DNA of 13,214 nucleotides from a virus (Duplodnaviria; Heunggongvirae; Uroviricota; Caudoviricetes). A model generated the notes under the pieces. It was not told where the DNA came from, made no database searches, and worked only from the letters and a program-made list of their open reading frames with translations. Shown here piece after piece: positions 2,063 to 11,378 of this stretch (within the stretch, counting starts at the first letter, position 1; each line of letters opens with the position of its first letter). The DNA lies in the IMG/VR virus record IMGVR_UViG_3300029064_000011; one strand, given 5' to 3'. Position numbers and translations under genes: made by a program.

Positions 2063-2344
2063 TTACCGCCGCAGCCGTTCCGGCTTCTTCCAGTGGTACG
2101 TTATTTTTTCTTTCTCCCGATACAGTTCAACGCGGCGATTGTAGGCCAGCATTTCAAGAACGCGGTTCCGTATGTTGCGCATATCAACGCCATTAAGTTC
2201 TATACCATCACGGCGCATCACTTCCGCTACAACACGCACATAATTTTCAGCGGTCACGCTGTCCGGCTGTGTGGCCTGTTCGTCATGCTGCTGGCTGATT
2301 CCGGCGACGCGGCGGATTAATCCCAGTAGTTCGGCTTCTGTCAT
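2063..2344 (-). CDS. Hypothetical protein, 93 aa, last island gene next to the left junction
   Basis: ORF with GGGGG Shine-Dalgarno 5 nt upstream of ATG at 2344. No family recognised. The overlapping + strand ORFs 2014..2196 and 2093..2320 are treated as antisense artefacts. Confidence 0.5.
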   Translation of the reverse strand: MTEAELLGLIRRVAGISQQHDEQATQPDSVTAENYVRVVAEVMRRDGIELNGVDMRNIRNRVLEMLAYNRRVELYREKEKITYHWKKPERLRR

Positions 2345-2374: not shown

Positions 2375-2575
2375 CGTCGGGTCCTTCCTGGAATTATGGC
2401 CCGTTACGGGGCGGCGACCTCGCGGTTTTTATCTGTTTATGAGAATTTTCCGGCAAAAGTCAGATCCGATCTTCTTCTCTGTAACAGACTGTTTAACAAT
2501 GAAAATATTAAAAAAAGAAAGGATCTGACACGAGGCATTTTAGCCAGAAAATGCCATTATCAGATCCTTTCTCAT
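2375..2575 (+). other. Lambda-type cos site, copy A (cosQ-like, cosN, full cosB-like region), + strand orientation
   Basis: 2399-2453 reads cccgttacggggcggcgacctcgcggtttttatctgtttatgagaattttccgg, closely matching the lambda cos junction as I remember it. Cohesive-end 12-mer GGGCGGCGACCT at 2408-2419. Upstream cgggtccttcctgg resembles lambda cosQ. Downstream has ttcttcttc, aaaagaaagga and nested inverted repeats (AAAGGATCTGA 2516-2526 / TCAGATCCTTT 2561-2571 around GGCATTTT-agccag-AAAATGCC 2534-2555) that parallel the lambda cosB region. Confidence 0.8.
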
Positions 2576-2599: not shown

Positions 2600-3142
2600 T
2601 TACTCGCCTTTCTTCTGTAGCAACTTTTCCGGTACGTTTCCGGTTGTTTCTTTCAAGTAATCAGCCAGTATCTGTGGGAGGTTGTCGGCAACTCTGGCAC
2701 TGGCATTACAGGCTTTAACCACTTCCCTTTTAAGCCTGTCCAGCATGGCGGGGGTAATCTGTGGGAAGCTCCTTTGCATAGTAAGCGGGAGGCTGTCCAT
2801 GATTGATGAAATCTGACTCGCCAGCTTTGAAAGCGCGTACAGGCAAAACTCAGTATCAATCACGTCACCGCGATCGCGATCGTTTTTAAGTTCCTGCGCC
2901 TCTGCCTGTGCTGTCAGTAATCTGATCCTGACTCGTAAAAGTTCATCATCGTCAATCTCGCCTTTGTCGTTTATAAGCTGGCTAATTGCATTGTTAACCC
3001 TATTTTCTATCACGCTGGCAACATCATAAAACGCCTCACGGCCTTTACGCTCAACGGGAGTTACTCCCCACTTGTCGAACGCTGTCGCACTTACACGGCA
3101 GCTTTTCGCCATGTTTTTTTTGTTCATCAGATGAGATTTCAT
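2600..3142 (-). CDS. terS: Terminase small subunit, lambda Nu1-like, 180 aa
   Basis: Same length class as Nu1 (181 aa). Central and C-terminal segments (LTAQAEAQELKNDRD..., FCLYALSKLASQISSIMDSLPLTMQRSFP, LKREVVKACN) align with the Nu1 segments LTRAQADAQELKNARD, FCTFVLSRIAGEIASILDGLPLSVQRRFP, LKRDIIKAMN from memory. The N-terminal HTH region is more divergent. ATG at 3140-3142. Confidence 0.88.
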   Translation of the reverse strand: MKSHLMNKKNMAKSCRVSATAFDKWGVTPVERKGREAFYDVASVIENRVNNAISQLINDKGEIDDDELLRVRIRLLTAQAEAQELKNDRDRGDVIDTEFCLYALSKLASQISSIMDSLPLTMQRSFPQITPAMLDRLKREVVKACNASARVADNLPQILADYLKETTGNVPEKLLQKKGE

Positions 3143-3181: not shown

Positions 3182-3253
3182 GCTTGCATCTTTCCCTTTT
3201 CATTCATAAAGATAGATCAAACAACAAAACCACCACCACCACCCTGAAAAGGC

Positions 3254-3317
3254 TCATAAATAGCGAAAATCCGCGAGGTCGCCGCCCCGTAACGGGTCCA
3301 TATGCCGGAAAGGACCC
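3254..3317 (-). other. Lambda-type cos site, copy B (cosQ-like plus cosN, short divergent cosB), minus orientation, directly upstream of terS
   Basis: Minus strand reads tacgggtcctttccggcatatggacccgttacggggcggcgacctcgcggattttcgctatttatga. The ACGGGTCCTTTCCGG and GGGCGGCGACCTCGCGG blocks match lambda cosQ/cosN as I remember them. The 12-mer occupies 3276-3287 on the + strand as its reverse complement. Sequence diverges from lambda cosB after tatttatga. About 140 nt separate cosN from the terS ATG. Confidence 0.8.
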
Positions 3318-3319
3318 GT

Positions 3320-3343
3320 AAAAAAAGCCGGATTTCTCCGGCC
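3320..3343 (-). terminator. Rho-independent terminator after the 137-aa gene
   Basis: Minus strand GCCGGA-gaaa-TCCGGC hairpin (3327-3342) followed by a 7-U run (3320-3326). Confidence 0.55.
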
Positions 3344-3348
3344 TTGTC

Positions 3349-3762
3349 TCAGATGGTTTTCAGTATGCGCTCGATGTCGCCATCATCGCCCGGGTTTCTG
3401 CCGTCGTATGCCATGCCAGCTGAAACGGCTTGCGGGCTGTGCATGTCCATAAAGTTTTCAAAGGCTGCGGTAAGCTCCGGCGCAACCTTCTGGCGTTCCT
3501 GCTCTATGGTCATGCTAAGGATGCTTTTAGCCGTACCAACATCGATACAAGGCACGTTTGCCATTGCACGTAACAGCGGCTGATAGTCGTTATGCTCATG
3601 AAGCGCCATAATCGCATCAGCGCGCGGCTTGTCCTGCTCTTCCAGTTTGTTGAGTTGATATACGGCCTCGTAGGTTGATAAACCTCTGTCAGCCATTGCC
3701 CGCGCTTCGGCTTTAAATTTACTCGCCAGCGGTAGCGTCATGATGCTTTCATTCGTTGCCAT
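3349..3762 (-). CDS. Hypothetical head-module protein, 137 aa
   Basis: ORF with AGGGGGAA SD 3-4 nt upstream of ATG at 3762. Sits between the decoration-protein gene and cos copy B. No family recognised. Confidence 0.6.
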   Translation of the reverse strand: MATNESIMTLPLASKFKAEARAMADRGLSTYEAVYQLNKLEEQDKPRADAIMALHEHNDYQPLLRAMANVPCIDVGTAKSILSMTIEQERQKVAPELTAAFENFMDMHSPQAVSAGMAYDGRNPGDDGDIERILKTI

Positions 3763-3774
3763 CGTTCCCCCTGC

Positions 3775-4110
3775 TTATCGGGCCAGCGGCTGAACGGATA
3801 CGCCAGAACCCGCAAAGGCGGCGCATTTTTTCGCATCGGTGTCGACGCTCTCGGGCCAGTTCACGGCGGCGATATTAAAGATCCCCGTCTTGTAGCACTG
3901 TGCTGATTTCTGCTTTGACGTGTCCACGGGGTACGAAGTCAGATAAACAGCCTTTCCGGACGCCTGACCATCCCACGGCTTAAACTCGCCATTGTCCGCC
4001 AGCATCAGCGGGGTAAATTCCTGAATGACGCCAGCATCAGCGGCAAAATGTACCAGCGTCGTGGATACCTGCTGACTGCCTGCAAATAACTCAATGTATG
4101 GAGTGTTCAT
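3775..4110 (-). CDS. Head decoration protein, lambda gpD-like, 111 aa
   Basis: Motifs TPLMLAD, WDG, YKTGIF, NWPE and KKCAAFAGSG align with lambda gpD (TPLMLD, WDG, YKSGTF, WPE, KKRTAFAG) from memory. Similar length to gpD (110 aa). GGGGGA SD 5 nt upstream of the ATG. Confidence 0.8.
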   Translation of the reverse strand: MNTPYIELFAGSQQVSTTLVHFAADAGVIQEFTPLMLADNGEFKPWDGQASGKAVYLTSYPVDTSKQKSAQCYKTGIFNIAAVNWPESVDTDAKKCAAFAGSGVSVQPLAR

Positions 4111-4121
4111 AGAATCCCCCG

Positions 4122-5177
4122 TTAACCAATTTTGACGGTAACAAATTTGCGAATGTCTGCCGGCACCGGCTGCGGTGCGCTGTGCGTCTGCACGTACTCA
4201 ATCGCCGGATCGCCGTCCTCAATCCAGTTTTTCGGGTAGTACATGTTTTGCGTTGCGCCCGTTCTTACCGCTTCCTGATCCATAATCGCACCATAAGCAA
4301 CCAGCCCTTTATTGTTGGTGTTGCCCAAGACCAGCAAATCAGGCTCAAGGAAATGTTTTTCGGTGCCGTCGCTGTCGGCGTATTTGCCGGAATAGACGAT
4401 AAGGGCAATATCGCCCAGATAGCCTTTAAAGCTCACCACTTCGCCCAGGTTTTTACAGGCCAGTTCTGCGGCGGATTCTGAACCACGGGAAAGATCGTAC
4501 AGTTCGCGGAATTTTTTAAAGCTGCGTAACGTGCGCCATACCTCAGCGCCCATAATCATGACGTTTGCGGGGCAATTGCCCTGATCCGCATAAAGCTCGA
4601 TATCATAGATTGGATCGTGGGTTTCTTTGTCCTGCTCGGACCATTTACGGCCTTTGGCCTGCTCTATGATGTTGTTTTCCGGCATCTTCCAGTCGATTTC
4701 ATAGCGTTCTATGCCTTCGCCCTCAATGATGTTTTTTCCGGTCGTTACCGCATTTACCGCCAGCCATTCAACACGCGCTTTAATAGCGTTTACCTGGCGG
4801 CGCATGTTGCCAGTAATCAGGCGCATACGGCGATAGGTTGGGTCGTTAAGCTGTGCCGGATCTTCTCCAGCCATGCGCATGATGGTTTTTGTTGGATCGA
4901 TTTCGTGCTTTGGCTTCATGTAGCCAGGTTTAATCGTGCTGGTTTCGTACCCTTTATCGCGCTGTACCTGGCTACCAACCATAGGCGAGCAAAACGCTGA
5001 CATAGTGACTTCTTCGGTGTCCAGGTTATCCAGCATGATGTTTTGGGTGTTGAATGTCGCTACTTTCGGGAAAAACAGCGTGGTAAACAGCGGACTAAAT
5101 TTAAATTCCGCAATATCCCCGCGATTCAGGTACGCAAAAAGCTGGTGAGTGTTAAGTGCCGTTGCTTTGCCTGCCAT
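4122..5177 (-). CDS. Major capsid protein, lambda gpE-like, 351 aa
   Basis: Collinear similarity to lambda gpE over the full length as I remember it: FKFSPLF vs FKFDPLF, KPGYMKPKHEIDP vs TPGYVKPKHEVNP, DPTYRRMRLI vs DPAYRRRRII, WRTLRSFK vs WALFRSFK, SFKGYLGDIALIVYSGKY vs SYKGMYGDVAIVVYSGQY, YPKNWIEDGDPA vs YPKNWVTTGDPA. GGGGGTGA SD. Start overlaps the stop of the upstream 68-aa gene (TAATG). Confidence 0.92.
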   Translation of the reverse strand: MAGKATALNTHQLFAYLNRGDIAEFKFSPLFTTLFFPKVATFNTQNIMLDNLDTEEVTMSAFCSPMVGSQVQRDKGYETSTIKPGYMKPKHEIDPTKTIMRMAGEDPAQLNDPTYRRMRLITGNMRRQVNAIKARVEWLAVNAVTTGKNIIEGEGIERYEIDWKMPENNIIEQAKGRKWSEQDKETHDPIYDIELYADQGNCPANVMIMGAEVWRTLRSFKKFRELYDLSRGSESAAELACKNLGEVVSFKGYLGDIALIVYSGKYADSDGTEKHFLEPDLLVLGNTNNKGLVAYGAIMDQEAVRTGATQNMYYPKNWIEDGDPAIEYVQTHSAPQPVPADIRKFVTVKIG

Positions 5178-5383
5178 TATTCACCCCCATAATTTTTATG
5201 CATCCCAAGCGCCGCAAGTAAATAAGAGCGTACAAGTGAACCTATCGACGGCTCCGGCGTCATCAGCGGATCCAGTCCAGCCGCCACGCCAGCCTCATAG
5301 TTTTTTTTGTGGCGCTGCTTGAGCACCTCCACGATTTCGGGGCTTATGTACACCGAAACACCGCCTTTTTTCTCTTCAGCCAT
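5177..5383 (-). CDS. Hypothetical small protein, 68 aa, translationally coupled to the capsid gene
   Basis: ORF ending in TAA that shares one base with the capsid ATG. GAGGAA upstream of its ATG. First gene after the putative capsid-operon promoter. Function unknown. Confidence 0.5.
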   Translation of the reverse strand: MAEEKKGGVSVYISPEIVEVLKQRHKKNYEAGVAAGLDPLMTPEPSIGSLVRSYLLAALGMHKNYGGE

Positions 5384-5418
5384 AGTAAGAAATTCCTCTT
5401 CGACTTAAAAAATCATAA

Positions 5419-5468
5419 CTGGATGTTCATCCAGCTCTGATTATAATCATGATTGCATTTTGTGCAAT
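5419..5468 (-). promoter_or_regulatory. Putative sigma70 promoter of the capsid operon with two overlapping palindromes
   Basis: On the minus strand: -35 TTGCAC (5462-5467), 16-nt spacer, perfect -10 TATAAT (5440-5445, inside the palindrome GATTATAATC). Palindrome ATTGCA-N5-TGCAAT (5452-5468) overlaps the -35. Palindrome CTGGATG-TT-CATCCAG (5419-5434) sits at the predicted start site. Confidence 0.45.
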
Positions 5469-5544
5469 GATATTGAGTTGTGTTGCAAATTATGAAATGA
5501 TTATCCCGATCATGTGTGTCAGTGCACCAAAAAGCCTCATATGC

Positions 5545-5760: not shown

Positions 5761-5782
5761 AAAAAAGCCGGATTGCTCCGGC
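5761..5782 (-). terminator. Rho-independent terminator after the SSB-like gene
   Basis: Minus strand GCCGGA-gcaa-TCCGGC hairpin (5767-5782) followed by 6 U (5761-5766). Nearly the same sequence module as the terminator at 3320-3343. Confidence 0.55.
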
Positions 5783-9875: not shown

Positions 9876-10095
9876 GTACCCCTCCGCATTTTTTTTCGTT
9901 AGAAATAAGCGTTCTTCTTTCCTGTTCATCGCTCAGGAATACGCAGACCTCACCGCTAAGGCGTTTAAGTAAGCCGATGATTGCCCCTGATTCGCTGTCG
10001 GTCATCATGCCAGGGTAATCCTCTGCCAGTGCGCAAATAACTTCGATTTGGTGGGCGCGTTCTGCTGCCTGTTGTAGTGTGATTTCCTGGCTCAT
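9865..10095 (-). CDS. Hypothetical protein, 76 aa
   Basis: ORF with GGGGGTAGG SD. Its ATG overlaps the stop of the upstream 66-codon reading frame (ATGA). Confidence 0.45.
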   Translation of the reverse strand: MSQEITLQQAAERAHQIEVICALAEDYPGMMTDSESGAIIGLLKRLSGEVCVFLSDEQERRTLISNEKKCGGVHVQ

Positions 10096-10292
10096 AAGCC
10101 TACCCCCTGACGAATACGGGCAGCAAATACCATCACGCAGCCAGCCGGAGATTGCTGGCGTGCTTCCTGTTCGCTGGTGGCCTCAATGGTAATCACGCGC
10201 GGTTGTGCCGTGCTCAGGGCGATAAAACGCCAGATGTATTTATTCAGGTTGTGCGAGTCCCGCCCTTGCGGGTGTGTGGTATGATTTCTCAT
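10092..10292 (-). CDS. Hypothetical protein, 66 aa, candidate first gene of the leftward operon
   Basis: ATG at 10290-10292 preceded by GAGGTAG. Stop overlaps the start of the 76-aa gene. This is the C-terminal in-frame part of the 428-codon ORF 10092..11378. Starts about 95 bp from the operator cluster. Confidence 0.4.
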   Translation of the reverse strand: MRNHTTHPQGRDSHNLNKYIWRFIALSTAQPRVITIEATSEQEARQQSPAGCVMVFAARIRQGVGL

Positions 10293-11378
10293 AGCTACCT
10301 CGATACTTTCGCTATCGTTGGTGGTTAGAAGCCCGGTTAGTGTTAGCGCACTGCCGGGTTTCGTCGTTTCTGCACCTTGCGCCAACAAGGTGTTGAACAC
10401 CAATTTAAACCCAGGTGTTAAACACGTCAAGTGTTGAACACTTATTTTTTTTCCTGCATACTGCATTTGTTTTTTATGAGGGGTACACCACATGGCGACA
10501 AAAGCGGTAAACGCAAAATCACAAACCGTTGCGGCAAGGGTTCCGCATGAAGTTATGAACAATGTTGAGGCGGTAAAAATGCCTGGCGAAAGTACGGGGC
10601 AATTTGTTACTGCGGCATTAAAACGAGAAGTTGAATATCGCCAGCGGCGCAAGGCCAAAGAACCAGAGTAATCACCATCAGCGCCGTGGTGTAAGGTATT
10701 ACGGCGCATTGCTATGCAGGACAACACAATGACCGATAAAGAATTGACCAAAACATTATCACCGGCACGGAAAAGACGGCGCAGAAAGATAGAGCATGAA
10801 TCAGAAAGATTCGCGCCATGTGCTTTTGCCCTTGAGCAATTCCTTAAAGAGTACAGGGAAAAGCGCTCATTGCAGGTATGGCAACGAACTGAACCAGACT
10901 GATTGCATTGCCCACCAGCCGCAAATGTGGCATTGTTGGCAATGCTCATGCGTTGGGGATAACGTGTAGCTTGTGTCGAGGGGCCACCGTAGCGGGTGGC
11001 CTTTGTTTTGCCCGTTATTCGGCAATTGTGGCGCTTCTCCACATGGTTGATATAATCCCACTGCTCAGATTCATTTTTTGCGCAGTAGGTTAATTGTTCA
11101 CAAAGGCGCTCCGGCAACGGGGCGCTTTTTGTTTTTATTAGTTTGTAGAAACCTGACTCAGAGATAATGCTCATATTCTGATTGCCGTCAGGGGTGTAAG
11201 TTAAATTTACTCCCTTTTTATCATCAAACATCTGCAACGCTCTGGCGTTAACAATATTGGTTTCACTCCCGCCAGTAAGGCCGGAAATAACCGGAATAAT
11301 TTCGGCAAAATTTTGCAGATTCTGTTTTTCAGGACGAACGAAGCCCCGCCCTTGTTCGGGAGAATATCCAGTATTCAT
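10092..11378 (-). CDS. 428-codon ORF, probably not one real gene; N-terminal roughly 115 codons resemble a BRO-N/antirepressor-like domain, the middle overlaps the + strand RHH cassette
   Basis: N-terminal part contains ISESGFYKLIKTKSAP, reminiscent of the BRO-N motif I-E-G-LY-LI-S-P. The rest has skewed Cys/Ser/Thr-rich composition and runs antisense through operators, the RHH gene and two + strand terminators. Weak SD at the 11378 ATG. Confidence 0.25.
   Translation of the reverse strand: MNTGYSPEQGRGFVRPEKQNLQNFAEIIPVISGLTGGSETNIVNARALQMFDDKKGVNLTYTPDGNQNMSIISESGFYKLIKTKSAPLPERLCEQLTYCAKNESEQWDYINHVEKRHNCRITGKTKATRYGGPSTQATRYPQRMSIANNATFAAGGQCNQSGSVRCHTCNERFSLYSLRNCSRAKAHGANLSDSCSIFLRRLFRAGDNVLVNSLSVIVLSCIAMRRNTLHHGADGDYSGSLALRRWRYSTSRFNAAVTNCPVLSPGIFTASTLFITSCGTLAATVCDFAFTAFVAMWCTPHKKQMQYAGKKISVQHLTCLTPGFKLVFNTLLAQGAETTKPGSALTLTGLLTTNDSESIEVAMRNHTTHPQGRDSHNLNKYIWRFIALSTAQPRVITIEATSEQEARQQSPAGCVMVFAARIRQGVGL
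10388..10442. promoter_or_regulatory. Three palindromic operator-like sites in a divergent promoter region
   Basis: GGTGTT-G-AACACC (10388-10400), GTGTT-A-AACAC (10414-10424) and AAGTGTT-G-AACACTT (10428-10442). The third overlaps a candidate rightward promoter: -35 TTGAAC (10433-10438), 17-nt spacer, -10 CATACT (10456-10461). Confidence 0.6.
10491..10670 (+). CDS. Ribbon-helix-helix (Arc/CopG-like) DNA-binding protein, 59 aa
   Basis: Not in the ORF track because it is under 60 aa; translated by hand as MATKAVNAKSQTVAARVPHEVMNNVEAVKMPGESTGQFVTAALKREVEYRQRRKAKEPE. The N-terminal strand-like RVPHEV followed by two helices is the classic RHH pattern. GAGGGG SD. The operator cluster lies immediately upstream. 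Confidence 0.6.
10714..10902 (+). CDS. Small, very basic hypothetical protein (58-62 aa), second gene of the + strand cassette
   Basis: ORF track entry 10714..10902. An AGGA SD favours the second ATG at 10729 (MTDKELTK...). Contains an RKRRRRK tract. Followed by an intrinsic terminator. Confidence 0.4.
   Translation: MQDNTMTDKELTKTLSPARKRRRRKIEHESERFAPCAFALEQFLKEYREKRSLQVWQRTEPD
10982..11009 (+). terminator. Rho-independent terminator of the + strand RHH cassette
   Basis: GGCCACC-gtagcg-GGTGGCC hairpin (10982-11001) followed by TTTGTTTT. Confidence 0.55.
11106..11136 (+). terminator. Second + strand rho-independent terminator
   Basis: GCGCTCCG-GCAA-CGGGGCGC hairpin (8 bp including one G-U pair, GNRA-like tetraloop) followed by TTTTTGTTTTT. 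Confidence 0.55.

What the first reader, a model, noticed from the sequence alone, without database searches (positions are those of the whole stretch)
3349..5383. Two uncharacterised proteins embedded in the head module (137 aa and 68 aa)
The 68-aa protein is translationally coupled to the capsid gene, and the 137-aa protein lies between the decoration gene and cos. Neither resembles lambda head proteins that I can recall. They are candidates for scaffold or size-determination factors, or for a factor that interferes with helper packaging, but this is speculative.
Basis: inference. Interest (0 to 1): 0.45.

Follow-up and report, generated by a model that had tools for sequence, protein, structure and literature searches.

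The report
Satellite capsid cassette: scaffold plus unknown
Both small genes are real, conserved parts of a four-gene capsid cassette in a known E. coli phage satellite (an EcCICFT073-type island); the 137-aa protein is a diverged relative of the lambda/phage 21 head scaffolding protein, and the 68-aa protein remains unexplained and untested.

Summary
On the minus strand, four genes form one unit: a 68-aa gene (5383-5177), an E-like capsid gene (5177-4122), a D-like decoration gene (4110-3775) and a 137-aa gene (3762-3349). The unit ends in a terminator, and a lambda-identical cosN lies 62 nt further on.

The window is an EcCICFT073-family PICI inserted beside phoQ. The two ORFs are orthologues of c1498 and c1501. 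About 11% of complete E. coli genomes carry the cassette, and both genes are under purifying selection.

It is a stand-alone homologue of the Nu3/gp6 scaffolding domain, closest to phage 21 gp6, and profile matches in both directions support this. Its most likely role, by inference, is scaffold for the island's own capsid protein.

The 68-aa protein is satellite-specific and has no significant match by sequence or fold. Hints of a ribbon-helix-helix fold are all below threshold. It occurs as two allele classes about 68% identical that assort freely.

Published work argues against helper interference by c1501. No deletion of c1498 or c1501 was found in the papers read. Overall this is a new member of a known family plus one open orphan, of moderate-to-low interest.

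The parts
5384..5500 (-). Conserved upstream control region of the cassette. It holds a perfect TATAAT at 5445-5440, several palindromes (TTGCAC-AAAA-TGCAA, ATCATGAT, CAATATCATTG), a hairpin at 5436-5417 followed by a T-run, and the RBS AAGAGGA at 5400-5394.
   Evidence: About 100 nt are nearly invariant across six islands, including a Salmonella island whose coding dS exceeds 1.5. The hairpin was found by the terminator scan and folds with z -2.5. Promoter function is inferred, not shown. The hairpin is not conserved in L010 or L011.
5177..5383 (-). 68-aa gene, the orthologue of EcCICFT073 c1498. It is satellite-specific and its function is unknown.
   Evidence: ORF. It is 68% identical to the CFT073 68-aa protein, and c1498 is listed as 68 aa. 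It matches phrog_3255 (unknown function) at 8.5e-46 and has no Pfam, NCBIfam or PADLOC hit. An exhaustive HMMER search gave 16 hits: small proteins of this family (E. coli and Salmonella wherever a source is named) and three long multi-stretch proteins that were not inspected. The AF2 model has pLDDT 70, with an extended segment at 8-14 and helices at 15-34 and 47-59. dN/dS is 0.11-0.39.
4122..5177 (-). E-like major capsid protein, 351 aa, orthologue of c1499.
   Evidence: PF03864 at 4.2e-50. It is 94% identical to the CFT073 protein, 47% to the capsid protein of the phage 21-like PhiR12 and 43% to lambda gpE.
3775..4110 (-). D-like head decoration protein, 111 aa, orthologue of c1500.
   Evidence: PF02924 at 5.6e-18. 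It is 96% identical to the CFT073 protein and 36% to lambda gpD.
3349..3762 (-). 137-aa gene, orthologue of c1501. It encodes a stand-alone Nu3/gp6-type scaffolding-domain protein.
   Evidence: It is 96% identical to the CFT073 137-aa protein, and c1501 is listed as 137 aa. It matches phrog_53 at positions 495-567 of 583 with E 5.5e-8, and 7 of 12 family members hit that model (best 6e-10). The family profile matches phage 21 gp6 at 1.4e-9 and PhiR12 gpC at 4e-10, and matches no other lambda head protein. The reverse profile, built from five phage Nu3/gp6 tails, hits residues 44-118 at 3.5e-7. The only tblastn hit in 50,697 phage records is a C/Nu3 gene. The AF2 model is all-helical with pLDDT 51.
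3320..3343 (-). Intrinsic terminator that closes the four-gene unit (GGCCGGAGAAAUCCGGC followed by U7).
   Evidence: Fold energy is -19.6 kcal/mol with z -3.1. It is 95% identical to the terminator after the ssb gene at 5761-5782 (family D6).
3276..3287 (-). cosN cohesive-end sequence, identical to that of lambda. It lies downstream of the 137-aa gene and upstream of the Nu1-like gene.
   Evidence: Exact match to GGGCGGCGACCT, where 0 matches are expected by chance. It aligns with the lambda left end.

Best explanation
The two ORFs are the first and last genes of a self-contained four-gene capsid-shell cassette (68 aa, E-like capsid, D-like decoration, 137 aa). EcCICFT073-family phage-inducible chromosomal islands carry this cassette, and the two ORFs are the orthologues of c1498 and c1501.

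Shown: the 137-aa protein is a free-standing homologue of the scaffolding domain that lambdoid phages encode as the C-terminal part of protease gpC and as the nested protein Nu3/gp6. It has one clear and one degenerate copy of the phage 21 'Tri-box' unit, followed by an acidic stretch and an invariant I-[DEN]-[RH]-I-L-K-[TN]-I C-terminus.

Inferred: it acts as the cognate internal scaffold or assembly chaperone for the island's own E-like capsid protein, binding it through the Tri-box and tail region. The island has no portal, protease or large terminase of its own, so these would have to come from the helper.

Shown: the 68-aa protein is a satellite-specific small protein that always sits directly in front of the capsid gene. 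The stop and start codons share one base in the E. coli islands checked; in the Salmonella island a 5-nt gap separates them.

Inferred, weakly: it folds as strand-helix-helix and dimerises like a ribbon-helix-helix protein. My leading guess is that it binds the invariant, palindrome-rich control region just upstream and tunes cassette expression. A role as a capsid-assembly cofactor is nearly as likely.
For: Identity and context:
- The island carries int, AlpA, a D5-type primase, DUF4222 and SSB, and has no portal, protease or TerL.
- It sits at the same phoQ site and has the same gene order as CFT073.
- The c-number mapping comes from the supplement of PMC6092414.

Scaffold homology of the 137-aa protein:
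- PHROG head-maturation-protease model, C-terminal region, 5.5e-8; 7 of 12 family members hit it.
- The family HMM matches phage 21 gp6 at 1.4e-9 and PhiR12 gpC at 4e-10. The alignments to N15, phi80 and lambda Nu3 are weak but collinear. None of Nu1, A, W, B, D, E, FI or FII is hit.
- The reciprocal HMM of phage tails hits the 137-aa protein at 3.5e-7, and does not hit the 68-aa, 93-aa or D proteins.
- The aligned phage segments are annotated as head scaffolding protein in the N15 and phi80 records and as head-tail preconnector gp6 in the phage 21 record. The phi80 and N15 scaffolds are also 137 aa long.
- The AF2 model is all-helical and low-confidence, as expected for a flexible scaffold.

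Cassette behaviour:
- The four genes stay together, with fixed spacing, in islands that have different integrases, replication modules (primase or RepA-type helicase) and packaging genes (Nu1-like or RppA).
- Both genes are under purifying selection, and their dN is 4-5 times higher than that of E and D, which is typical of scaffolds.
- The cassette is a discrete transcription unit.

68-aa protein:
- The AF2 topology is an extended segment followed by two helices.
- The first 14 codons and the upstream control region are conserved, while the rest of the gene is a sharply bounded divergent patch.
Against: - No experiment shows scaffold activity.
- In EcCICFT073, deleting the capsid (c1499) or decoration (c1500) gene changed neither transfer nor lambda interference, and packaged DNA was phage-sized. 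With the helpers tested, the cassette is therefore dispensable (PMC6092414; PMC10111431).
- Gene order differs from phages: the scaffold homologue follows D instead of preceding it, and it is not nested in a protease gene.
- A profile search of 5.8 billion proteins did not reach phage Nu3 proteins at E <= 0.01, and hhalign against gpC gave only 11% probability. The homology rests on HMMER matches scored against small search spaces.
- The 68-aa protein has roughly zero net charge, and its inter-helix loop is longer than in canonical RHH proteins.
- Co-translation with an abundant structural protein is unusual for a repressor.
Confidence: 0.55

Rival explanations
1. The 68-aa protein is a capsid-assembly cofactor, not a DNA-binding protein. 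It could be a chaperone, a mini-scaffold or an adaptor that binds the island's E-like protein, as the 72-aa CpmB does in SaPIs. It is made with the capsid protein by translational coupling.
For: The gene is always immediately upstream of the capsid gene. Stop and start codons overlap in the E. coli islands checked, and a 5-nt gap separates them in the Salmonella island. In tailed phages the gene before the capsid gene is usually a scaffold (general knowledge). The protein is small, helical, roughly charge-neutral and satellite-specific.
Against: It has no similarity to any known scaffold or chaperone. Its two allele classes do not co-vary with the capsid N-terminus or with variants of the 137-aa protein. 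A tight structural partner would be expected to co-vary.
Confidence: 0.3
2. One or both proteins act against the helper. The 137-aa protein would be a decoy scaffold that competes with helper Nu3/gpC for the helper capsid protein, blocking or resizing helper capsids in the way CpmB, Sid or TcaP do.
For: The 137-aa protein keeps the conserved C-terminal scaffolding region shared by Nu3/gp6 but has a different N-terminal part. Satellites commonly remodel helper capsids (reviewed in the cf-PICI preprint). The two freely assorting alleles of the 68-aa gene resemble a partner-specificity polymorphism.
Against: pBAD18-c1501 did not reduce lambda plaque formation, whereas c1503 (rppA) did. Deleting c1503 alone restored plaque formation, with titres close to those on the island-free host (PMC6739421). 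DNA packaged with helper lambda was all phage-sized (PMC6092414). The 137-aa protein is only about 32% identical to the nearest phage scaffold found and barely matches lambda Nu3.
Confidence: 0.12
3. The cassette is a decaying remnant of late genes captured from a helper, and the two small ORFs have no current function.
For: No phenotype was found for the c1499 or c1500 deletions. A capture-then-loss model has been proposed for PICI late genes (PMC10111431). Truncated and internally deleted copies of the 137-aa gene exist, for example the 93-aa forms P0027, P0030 and P0031.
Against: dN/dS is well below 1 for all four genes, even at saturated dS. Intact cassettes are present in 590 complete genomes. 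The upstream control region is nearly invariant between E. coli and Salmonella. The gene set is coherent: capsid, decoration and scaffold.
Confidence: 0.1

Closest known systems
Phage 21 gp6, lambda gpNu3 and phi80/N15 gp6: head scaffolding proteins nested in the C-terminus of the S49 protease gene C/5
   Same: The Tri-box unit and the following tail are homologous, with significant profile matches in both directions. The gene lies in a head module beside D-like and E-like genes. The length is the same as the phi80 and N15 scaffolds, 137 aa. The protein is helical and predicted with low confidence.
   Different: It is a stand-alone gene, not an in-frame internal start within a protease gene, and the island has no protease. 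It sits after D rather than before it. The N-terminal 45 residues are a degenerate second repeat, not the linker seen in phages. The C-terminal motif is RILKTI rather than LLNTPV or MLMAMP. It is only about 32% identical to the nearest phage protein.
EcCICFT073 genes c1498 and c1501 (Fillol-Salom et al. 2018 and 2019)
   Same: They are direct orthologues: 68% and 96% identity, the same phoQ-adjacent site and the same gene order.
   Different: The window's island carries a Nu1-family small terminase (180 aa) where CFT073 has RppA (144 aa). The window's 68-aa gene belongs to the other allele class. Neither gene has an assigned function in those papers. The marker called 'c1501::tetA' is inserted just after the stop codon, so it is not a knockout.
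SaPI capsid-remodelling proteins: CpmB (small internal scaffold) and Ccm (capsid homologue of SaPIbov5)
   Same: In both cases a satellite encodes a capsid homologue and/or a small scaffold-like protein next to its packaging functions. The 68-aa protein is similar in size to CpmB.
   Different: No sequence relationship was detected. EcCICFT073 DNA is packaged at phage size, not into small capsids. Here the scaffold homologue is paired with the satellite's own capsid and decoration genes.
Capsid-forming PICIs (cf-PICIs, for example EcCIEDL933)
   Same: Both are PICIs that carry their own HK97-fold capsid gene and packaging specificity.
   Different: cf-PICIs encode the full head set: portal, protease, connectors, and small and large terminase. 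This island has only capsid, decoration, scaffold homologue and a small terminase.
Ribbon-helix-helix regulators (CopG, Arc, BrnA, TraM N-domain), considered for the 68-aa protein
   Same: The predicted order is strand, helix, helix. It is the first gene after a palindrome-rich promoter region. The sub-threshold matches align the strand and helix A in register.
   Different: No match reaches significance. The inter-helix loop is about 12 residues instead of 3-5. The protein is not basic. The stop codon shares a base with the start codon of a capsid gene.

Membership tests
Nu3/gp6-type lambdoid head scaffolding protein (137-aa protein) | Sequence homology to the Tri-box and C-terminal scaffolding region shared by gpC/gp5 and Nu3/gp6 | tested here: met
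   phrog_53 at 5.5e-8, with 7 of 12 members hitting. Family HMM against phage 21 gp6 at 1.4e-9. Phage-tail HMM against the 137-aa protein at 3.5e-7. These E-values refer to a search space of 38,880. At the scale of 5.8 billion proteins the link is not significant.
Nu3/gp6-type lambdoid head scaffolding protein (137-aa protein) | Encoded in the head module next to the decoration and major capsid genes | tested here: met
   The gene is adjacent to the D-like gene and in one transcription unit with the E-like gene. The order is E-D-scaffold instead of scaffold-D-E.
Nu3/gp6-type lambdoid head scaffolding protein (137-aa protein) | Produced from an in-frame internal start within the S49 protease gene | tested here: not met
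   It is a stand-alone ORF with its own Shine-Dalgarno sequence, and the island has no S49 or ClpP-type protease gene.
Nu3/gp6-type lambdoid head scaffolding protein (137-aa protein) | Needed for procapsid assembly of the cognate capsid protein and removed before DNA packaging | not testable with these tools
   This needs co-expression and particle analysis. No deletion of c1501 was found in the papers read, and the tetA marker lies after its stop codon.
Ribbon-helix-helix DNA-binding proteins (68-aa protein) | Significant match to an RHH family profile or structure | tested here: not met
Ribbon-helix-helix DNA-binding proteins (68-aa protein) | Strand-helix-helix topology forming an intertwined dimer | tested here: inconclusive
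   The monomer AF2 model has an extended segment at 8-14 and helices at 15-34 and 47-59, with pLDDT 70. No dimer model could be run.
Satellite capsid-size redirection factors (CpmB, Sid, TcaP, Ccm type) | Causes small, satellite-sized capsids | not testable with these tools
   For the orthologous island with helper lambda, the literature reports that all packaged DNA was phage-sized (PMC6092414). This argues against the role but was not tested for these two genes or for the native helper.
Helper packaging-interference proteins (Rpp or Ppi type) | Expression alone blocks helper plaque formation | not testable with these tools
   The literature reports that pBAD18-c1501 had no effect on lambda and that only c1503 (rppA) blocked it (PMC6739421). 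c1498 was not cloned. Neither protein resembles RppA.
EcCICFT073-type Gram-negative PICI (the element as a whole) | int, alpA, a pri-rep module, lambda-type cos, about 11 kb, no tail or lysis genes, specific att site | tested here: met
   Pfam matches to integrase, AlpA and D5_N primase. Two cosN sites. Same phoQ-flanking site and gene order as CFT073.
Capsid-forming PICI (cf-PICI) | Encodes portal, head protease, head-tail connectors and large terminase | tested here: not met
   None of these was found among the island's ORFs.

The most novel reading that the evidence does not exclude
EcCICFT073-type islands are 'shell-forming' satellites, an intermediate between classical PICIs and cf-PICIs. 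With an appropriate helper or condition not yet tested, the cassette would build the capsid shell itself, using the island's own capsid, decoration and Nu3-like scaffold, on the helper's portal, protease and terminase. The two-allele 68-aa protein would set which helper component or which regulatory input the shell kit responds to.
Probability: 0.2. Interest if true: 0.6.

Novelty: new member of a known kind. Interest (0 to 1): 0.33.

Why it matters
Capsid genes are the late genes most often found in Gram-negative PICIs: 21 of 29 reference islands carry one (PMC10111431). Their purpose is still an acknowledged blank. The authors of the model system wrote that they could not find a phenotype for c1499.

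This island carries a matching set of capsid, decoration protein and a cognate-looking scaffold. That set is held under purifying selection and sits behind an invariant control region. This argues that the cassette is a working assembly unit and not debris.

The result also points to concrete experiments:
- Express the four genes together and look for procapsid-like particles.
- Delete c1498 and c1501, for which no knockout was found in the papers read.
- Test helpers other than lambda and phi80.

It also corrects two points. The public protein name 'phage head-tail connector protein' probably derives from the old 'head-tail preconnector' label for gp5/gp6, and the homology points to a scaffold rather than a connector. 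The strain name 'c1501::tetA' does not denote a knockout.

Tried and rejected
- **Searches with no significant hit for either protein.** Pfam, NCBIfam and PADLOC gave no hit at the default significance level. PDB sequence searches gave only chance-level hits.
- **Fold search, 137-aa model.** Not attempted, because the model has pLDDT 51.
- **hhalign of the 68-aa family against Arc, Mnt, CopG and omega.** Probability was <= 1%, no better than the gpW and Cro controls. The RHH idea therefore stays a guess.
- **68-aa protein as a fragment of a lambdoid head protein.** A six-frame HMM search of the lambda, phage 21-like, phi80 and N15 head regions found nothing. An apparent 'PLM..EP' resemblance to the gpC N-terminus has E 0.38. 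Rejected.
- **68-aa protein as a gpW analogue.** The length is the same (68 aa), but there is no similarity and the predicted topology differs. Rejected.
- **137-aa protein as a gpFI analogue.** There is no match to the lambda, phi80, N15 or phage 21 FI/ORF1 proteins. Rejected.
- **Co-variation of the 68-aa alleles.** I tested association with the capsid N-terminus, 137-aa variants and the packaging gene type. None was found.
- **Genome-contig scan for 68-aa relatives.** It returned only a chance match in an Acidimicrobiales TetR-like gene.
- **Profile search of 5.8 billion proteins with the 137-aa family.** It did not reach the phage scaffolds.
- **The 79-aa ORF at the same position in a Salmonella island.** Its tail (NNLLLSVPAH) looks like that of lambda Nu3, but the match is not significant.
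- **Rfam.** No family was matched in the window.
Full report
**What the window is**

ORF listing and Pfam/PHROG scans show the 3' part of phoQ at 1-1461 on the plus strand. An island of about 11.5 kb follows, read on the minus strand. In order it encodes:
- an integrase (13214-11985);
- AlpA (11619-11431);
- several small ORFs;
- a DUF4222 protein;
- a D5-type primase (8539-6785);
- a 92-aa protein;
- SSB (6221-5799);
- the block under study;
- a Nu1-family small terminase (3142-2600);
- a 93-aa protein (2344-2063).

No portal, head protease, large terminase, tail or lysis gene is present.

The same site and gene order occur in E. coli CFT073, which carries the published phage-inducible chromosomal island EcCICFT073. 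The supplement of Fillol-Salom et al. 2018 lists c1498 as 68 aa and c1501 as 137 aa. The text gives c1499 as the capsid gene and c1500 as the decoration gene.

Identities between window and CFT073 proteins are as follows:

| Protein | Identity to CFT073 |
|---|---|
| 68 aa | 68% |
| Capsid | 94% |
| Decoration | 96% |
| 137 aa | 96% |
| 93 aa | 88% |

The packaging gene differs. The window has a Nu1-like protein of 180 aa (36% identical to lambda Nu1). CFT073 has the unrelated RppA of 144 aa.

**Checking the observation**

- The 68-aa ORF ends in GAA-TAA, and the last A of the stop codon is the A of the capsid ATG at base 5177. A GGGGGTGA Shine-Dalgarno sequence for the capsid gene lies inside the last codons of the 68-aa gene.
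- The decoration and 137-aa genes follow after 11-12 nt gaps, each with its own Shine-Dalgarno sequence.
- A strong hairpin plus U-run comes 5 nt after the 137-aa stop codon.
- The exact lambda cohesive-end sequence lies at 3287-3276.

Upstream of the 68-aa gene there are two terminators after ssb. Next comes a block of about 100 nt that is almost invariant across six islands, including a Salmonella island whose coding dS exceeds 1.5. This block holds a perfect TATAAT, several palindromes, and a hairpin plus T-run just before the RBS. The four genes therefore look like one separately controlled transcription unit.

**Are the two small ORFs genes?**

Yes.
- Pairwise dN/dS across six islands is 0.11-0.39 for the 68-aa gene and 0.08-0.28 for the 137-aa gene. 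The capsid and decoration genes give 0.05-0.24.
- At least 80% of 3349-5383 is found in 590 of 5426 complete E. coli genomes.
- In about 150 fetched loci the four genes co-occur wherever the contig is long enough, at a fixed 1621-nt offset in the loci checked.
- The cassette travels with different integrases and attachment sites, with primase or RepA-type helicase replication modules, and with Nu1-like or RppA packaging genes.

**The 137-aa protein**

Pfam and NCBIfam are silent on this protein. PHROGs places it in an unknown-function family (phrog_1999). PHROGs also matches residues 46-119 to positions 495-567 of the 583-position 'head maturation protease' model at E 5.5e-8. Seven of twelve diverse family members hit that model, the best at 6e-10.

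A tblastn search of 50,697 phage records gave one hit, the C-terminal 86 residues of the C/Nu3 gene of a phage 21-like phage.

I fetched the head regions of lambda, phage 21, phi80 and N15 and ran profile searches in both directions.
- **Family profile against phage head proteins**. It matches phage 21 gp6 at 1.4e-9 and the PhiR12 gpC at 4e-10. The best domain covers the third 'Tri box' and the tail. Matches to N15, phi80 and lambda Nu3 are weak but collinear. Nu1, A, W, B, D, E, FI and FII give no match.
- **Profile of five phage Nu3/gp6 tails against the island's proteins**. It hits residues 44-118 of the 137-aa protein at 3.5e-7. It does not hit the 68-aa, 93-aa or D-like proteins.

These E-values are for a search space of 38,880. 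At the scale of 5.8 billion sequences the link is not reached, and hhalign against a five-sequence gpC alignment gives only 11% probability. I therefore treat the homology as well supported, mainly because it recurs, holds in both directions and fits the genomic context. I do not treat it as proven.

The protein reads as two units followed by a tail:
- a degenerate unit at the N-terminus (IMTLPLASKF...ARAMA...);
- a clearer Tri-box-like unit (IMALHE...LRAMANVPCIDVGTAKSIL);
- a tail that aligns with phage 21 gp6 (ELTAAFENFMDMHSPQAVSAG), an acidic stretch and an invariant C-terminus, I-[DEN]-[RH]-I-L-K-[TN]-I.

Natural 93-aa variants have lost exactly the segment between the two 'ARAMA' motifs. 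This fits an internal repeat.

The AF2 model is all-helical with pLDDT 51. That is uninformative for fold search, but it is what one expects of a flexible scaffold.

In phages this domain is the part shared by the protease gpC and the nested scaffolding protein. The N15 and phi80 records annotate it as the head scaffolding protein, 137 aa long. It is established knowledge that lambda gpNu3 is the head scaffolding protein.

The NCBI name for this family, 'phage head-tail connector protein', most likely comes from the old 'head-tail preconnector' label of phage 21 gp5/gp6. It probably mislabels a scaffold homologue.

The inference I commit to is that the 137-aa protein is the cognate scaffold or assembly chaperone of the island's own E-like capsid protein.

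**The 68-aa protein**

This protein is an orphan.
- An exhaustive HMMER search of 1.84 billion cluster representatives found 16 hits. They are small proteins of this family (E. coli and Salmonella wherever a source is named) and three long multi-stretch proteins that I did not inspect.
- tblastn found no relative in the phage record collection, and a six-frame HMM search of the fetched lambdoid head regions found none either.
- AF2 (pLDDT 70) predicts an extended segment at 8-14, a helix at 15-34, a 12-residue loop and a helix at 47-59.

Three weak signals point to the ribbon-helix-helix fold:
- RHH_1 at E 0.2, aligning strand and helix A in register;
- the RHH part of BrnA at E 0.017;

None of these is significant. 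Foldseek and hhalign add nothing.

One population feature stands out. Between the window and CFT073, nucleotide identity is 93-100% across the cassette and its promoter. It falls to 67-77% in a sharply bounded patch at 5340-5175, which is the body of the 68-aa gene.

Across the loci there are two common allele classes, about 68% identical, plus rarer ones. They assort independently of the capsid N-terminus, the 137-aa variants and the packaging gene type. The first 14 codons, which include the putative strand, stay constant along with the upstream DNA.

This pattern fits a protein whose DNA-reading part and target are fixed while the rest has diverged. It also fits a protein that recognises something outside the cassette. 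My leading guess is a small dimeric regulator of the cassette's control region, at about 0.3. An assembly cofactor bound to the capsid protein is about equally likely.

**What published experiments say**

For EcCICFT073 the papers report the following:
- Deleting c1499 or c1500 did not change lambda interference or transfer by the resident prophages.
- DNA packaged with helper lambda was phage-sized.
- The authors state that they found no phenotype for c1499 (PMC6092414).
- In the 2019 paper, c1499 to c1507 were cloned one by one in pBAD18. Only c1503 (rppA) blocked lambda, and its deletion restored plaque formation, with titres close to those on the island-free host (PMC6739421).

So the c1501 protein alone does not interfere with lambda. 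c1498 was not cloned.

The marker called 'c1501::tetA' is not a disruption. Its homology arms end exactly at the c1501 stop codon and resume just after it. I found no deletion of c1498 or c1501 in the papers read.

I found no paper that contains both 'Nu3' and 'PICI'.

**Comparison and verdict**

The 137-aa protein is a new, stand-alone and rearranged member of the Nu3/gp6 scaffolding family, carried by a satellite. It fails one family trait, nesting within a protease gene, which concerns gene architecture rather than protein function.

The cassette contains more than a lone capsid homologue such as Ccm. It contains much less than the full head set of cf-PICIs.

The 68-aa protein belongs to no known family. 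Nothing here is categorically new, and the element is a well-known model. The open question that remains useful is what this widespread, conserved shell kit is for.

Noticed in passing
window 2409-2420 (+) and 3276-3287 (-); inverted repeat 2378-2453 / 3243-3318: Two exact lambda-type cosN sites in inverted orientation flank the Nu1-like gene. They sit inside a 76-nt inverted repeat whose arms are 82% complementary. This matches the two functional cos sites (cos1 and cos2) reported for EcCICFT073. The reason for two inverted sites is not explained there.
   Followed up: partly
window 2600-3142 (-), compared with L004 2660-3094: The packaging-specificity gene is modular. This island has a Nu1-family small terminase of 180 aa (PF07471, 36% identical to lambda Nu1). 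CFT073 has the unrelated RppA (144 aa) at the same position. Among distinct cassette haplotypes in the fetched loci, about 40 carry the Nu1-like gene and about 20 carry RppA.
   Followed up: partly
window 5175-5340: The body of the 68-aa gene is a sharply bounded divergent patch, 67-77% nucleotide identity to CFT073 against 93-100% on both sides. There are two common allele classes that assort freely with every other cassette feature I checked. This looks like a balanced polymorphism or a specificity determinant.
   Followed up: partly
window 5384-5500 (-): A non-coding block of about 100 nt upstream of the 68-aa gene is almost invariant from E. coli to Salmonella islands. It contains TATAAT (5445-5440), palindromes, and a hairpin plus T-run (5436-5417) between the putative promoter and the RBS. 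That layout would suit control by antitermination or by an operator. The hairpin is absent in islands L010 and L011.
   Followed up: partly
window 3321-3342 and 5761-5782: The terminators after the 137-aa gene and after ssb are 95% identical 22-mers, and the next 15 nt are also similar. This suggests a duplicated or exchanged module boundary.
   Followed up: no
window 10092-11378 (-): The 428-aa ORF here is probably spurious. Its sequence is low in complexity and unlike typical proteins. It overlaps small plus-strand ORFs (10492-10671 and 10714-10902), and a related island has small plus-strand genes, one annotated as YlcI/YnfO family, at a similar position (L003).
   Followed up: no
proteins P0027, P0030, P0031 (93 aa); locus L008 9719-9958: Natural variants of the 137-aa protein have lost residues 21-64, exactly the segment between two 'ARAMA' motifs. 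A Salmonella island has a 79-aa ORF in the same position. Its C-terminus (DIAAINNLLLSVPAH) resembles the lambda Nu3 tail (DAVNDLLNTPV), but the match is not significant.
   Followed up: partly
window 2063-2344 (-): A conserved 93-aa protein lies downstream of the second cos site (phrog_1561, unknown function; 88% identical to the CFT073 copy). It accompanies most cassettes and is also uncharacterised.
   Followed up: no
public annotation of the 137-aa family: NCBI names this family 'phage head-tail connector protein'. The name probably derives from the 'head-tail preconnector' label of phage 21 gp5/gp6. The homology points to a scaffold, not a connector.
   Followed up: yes
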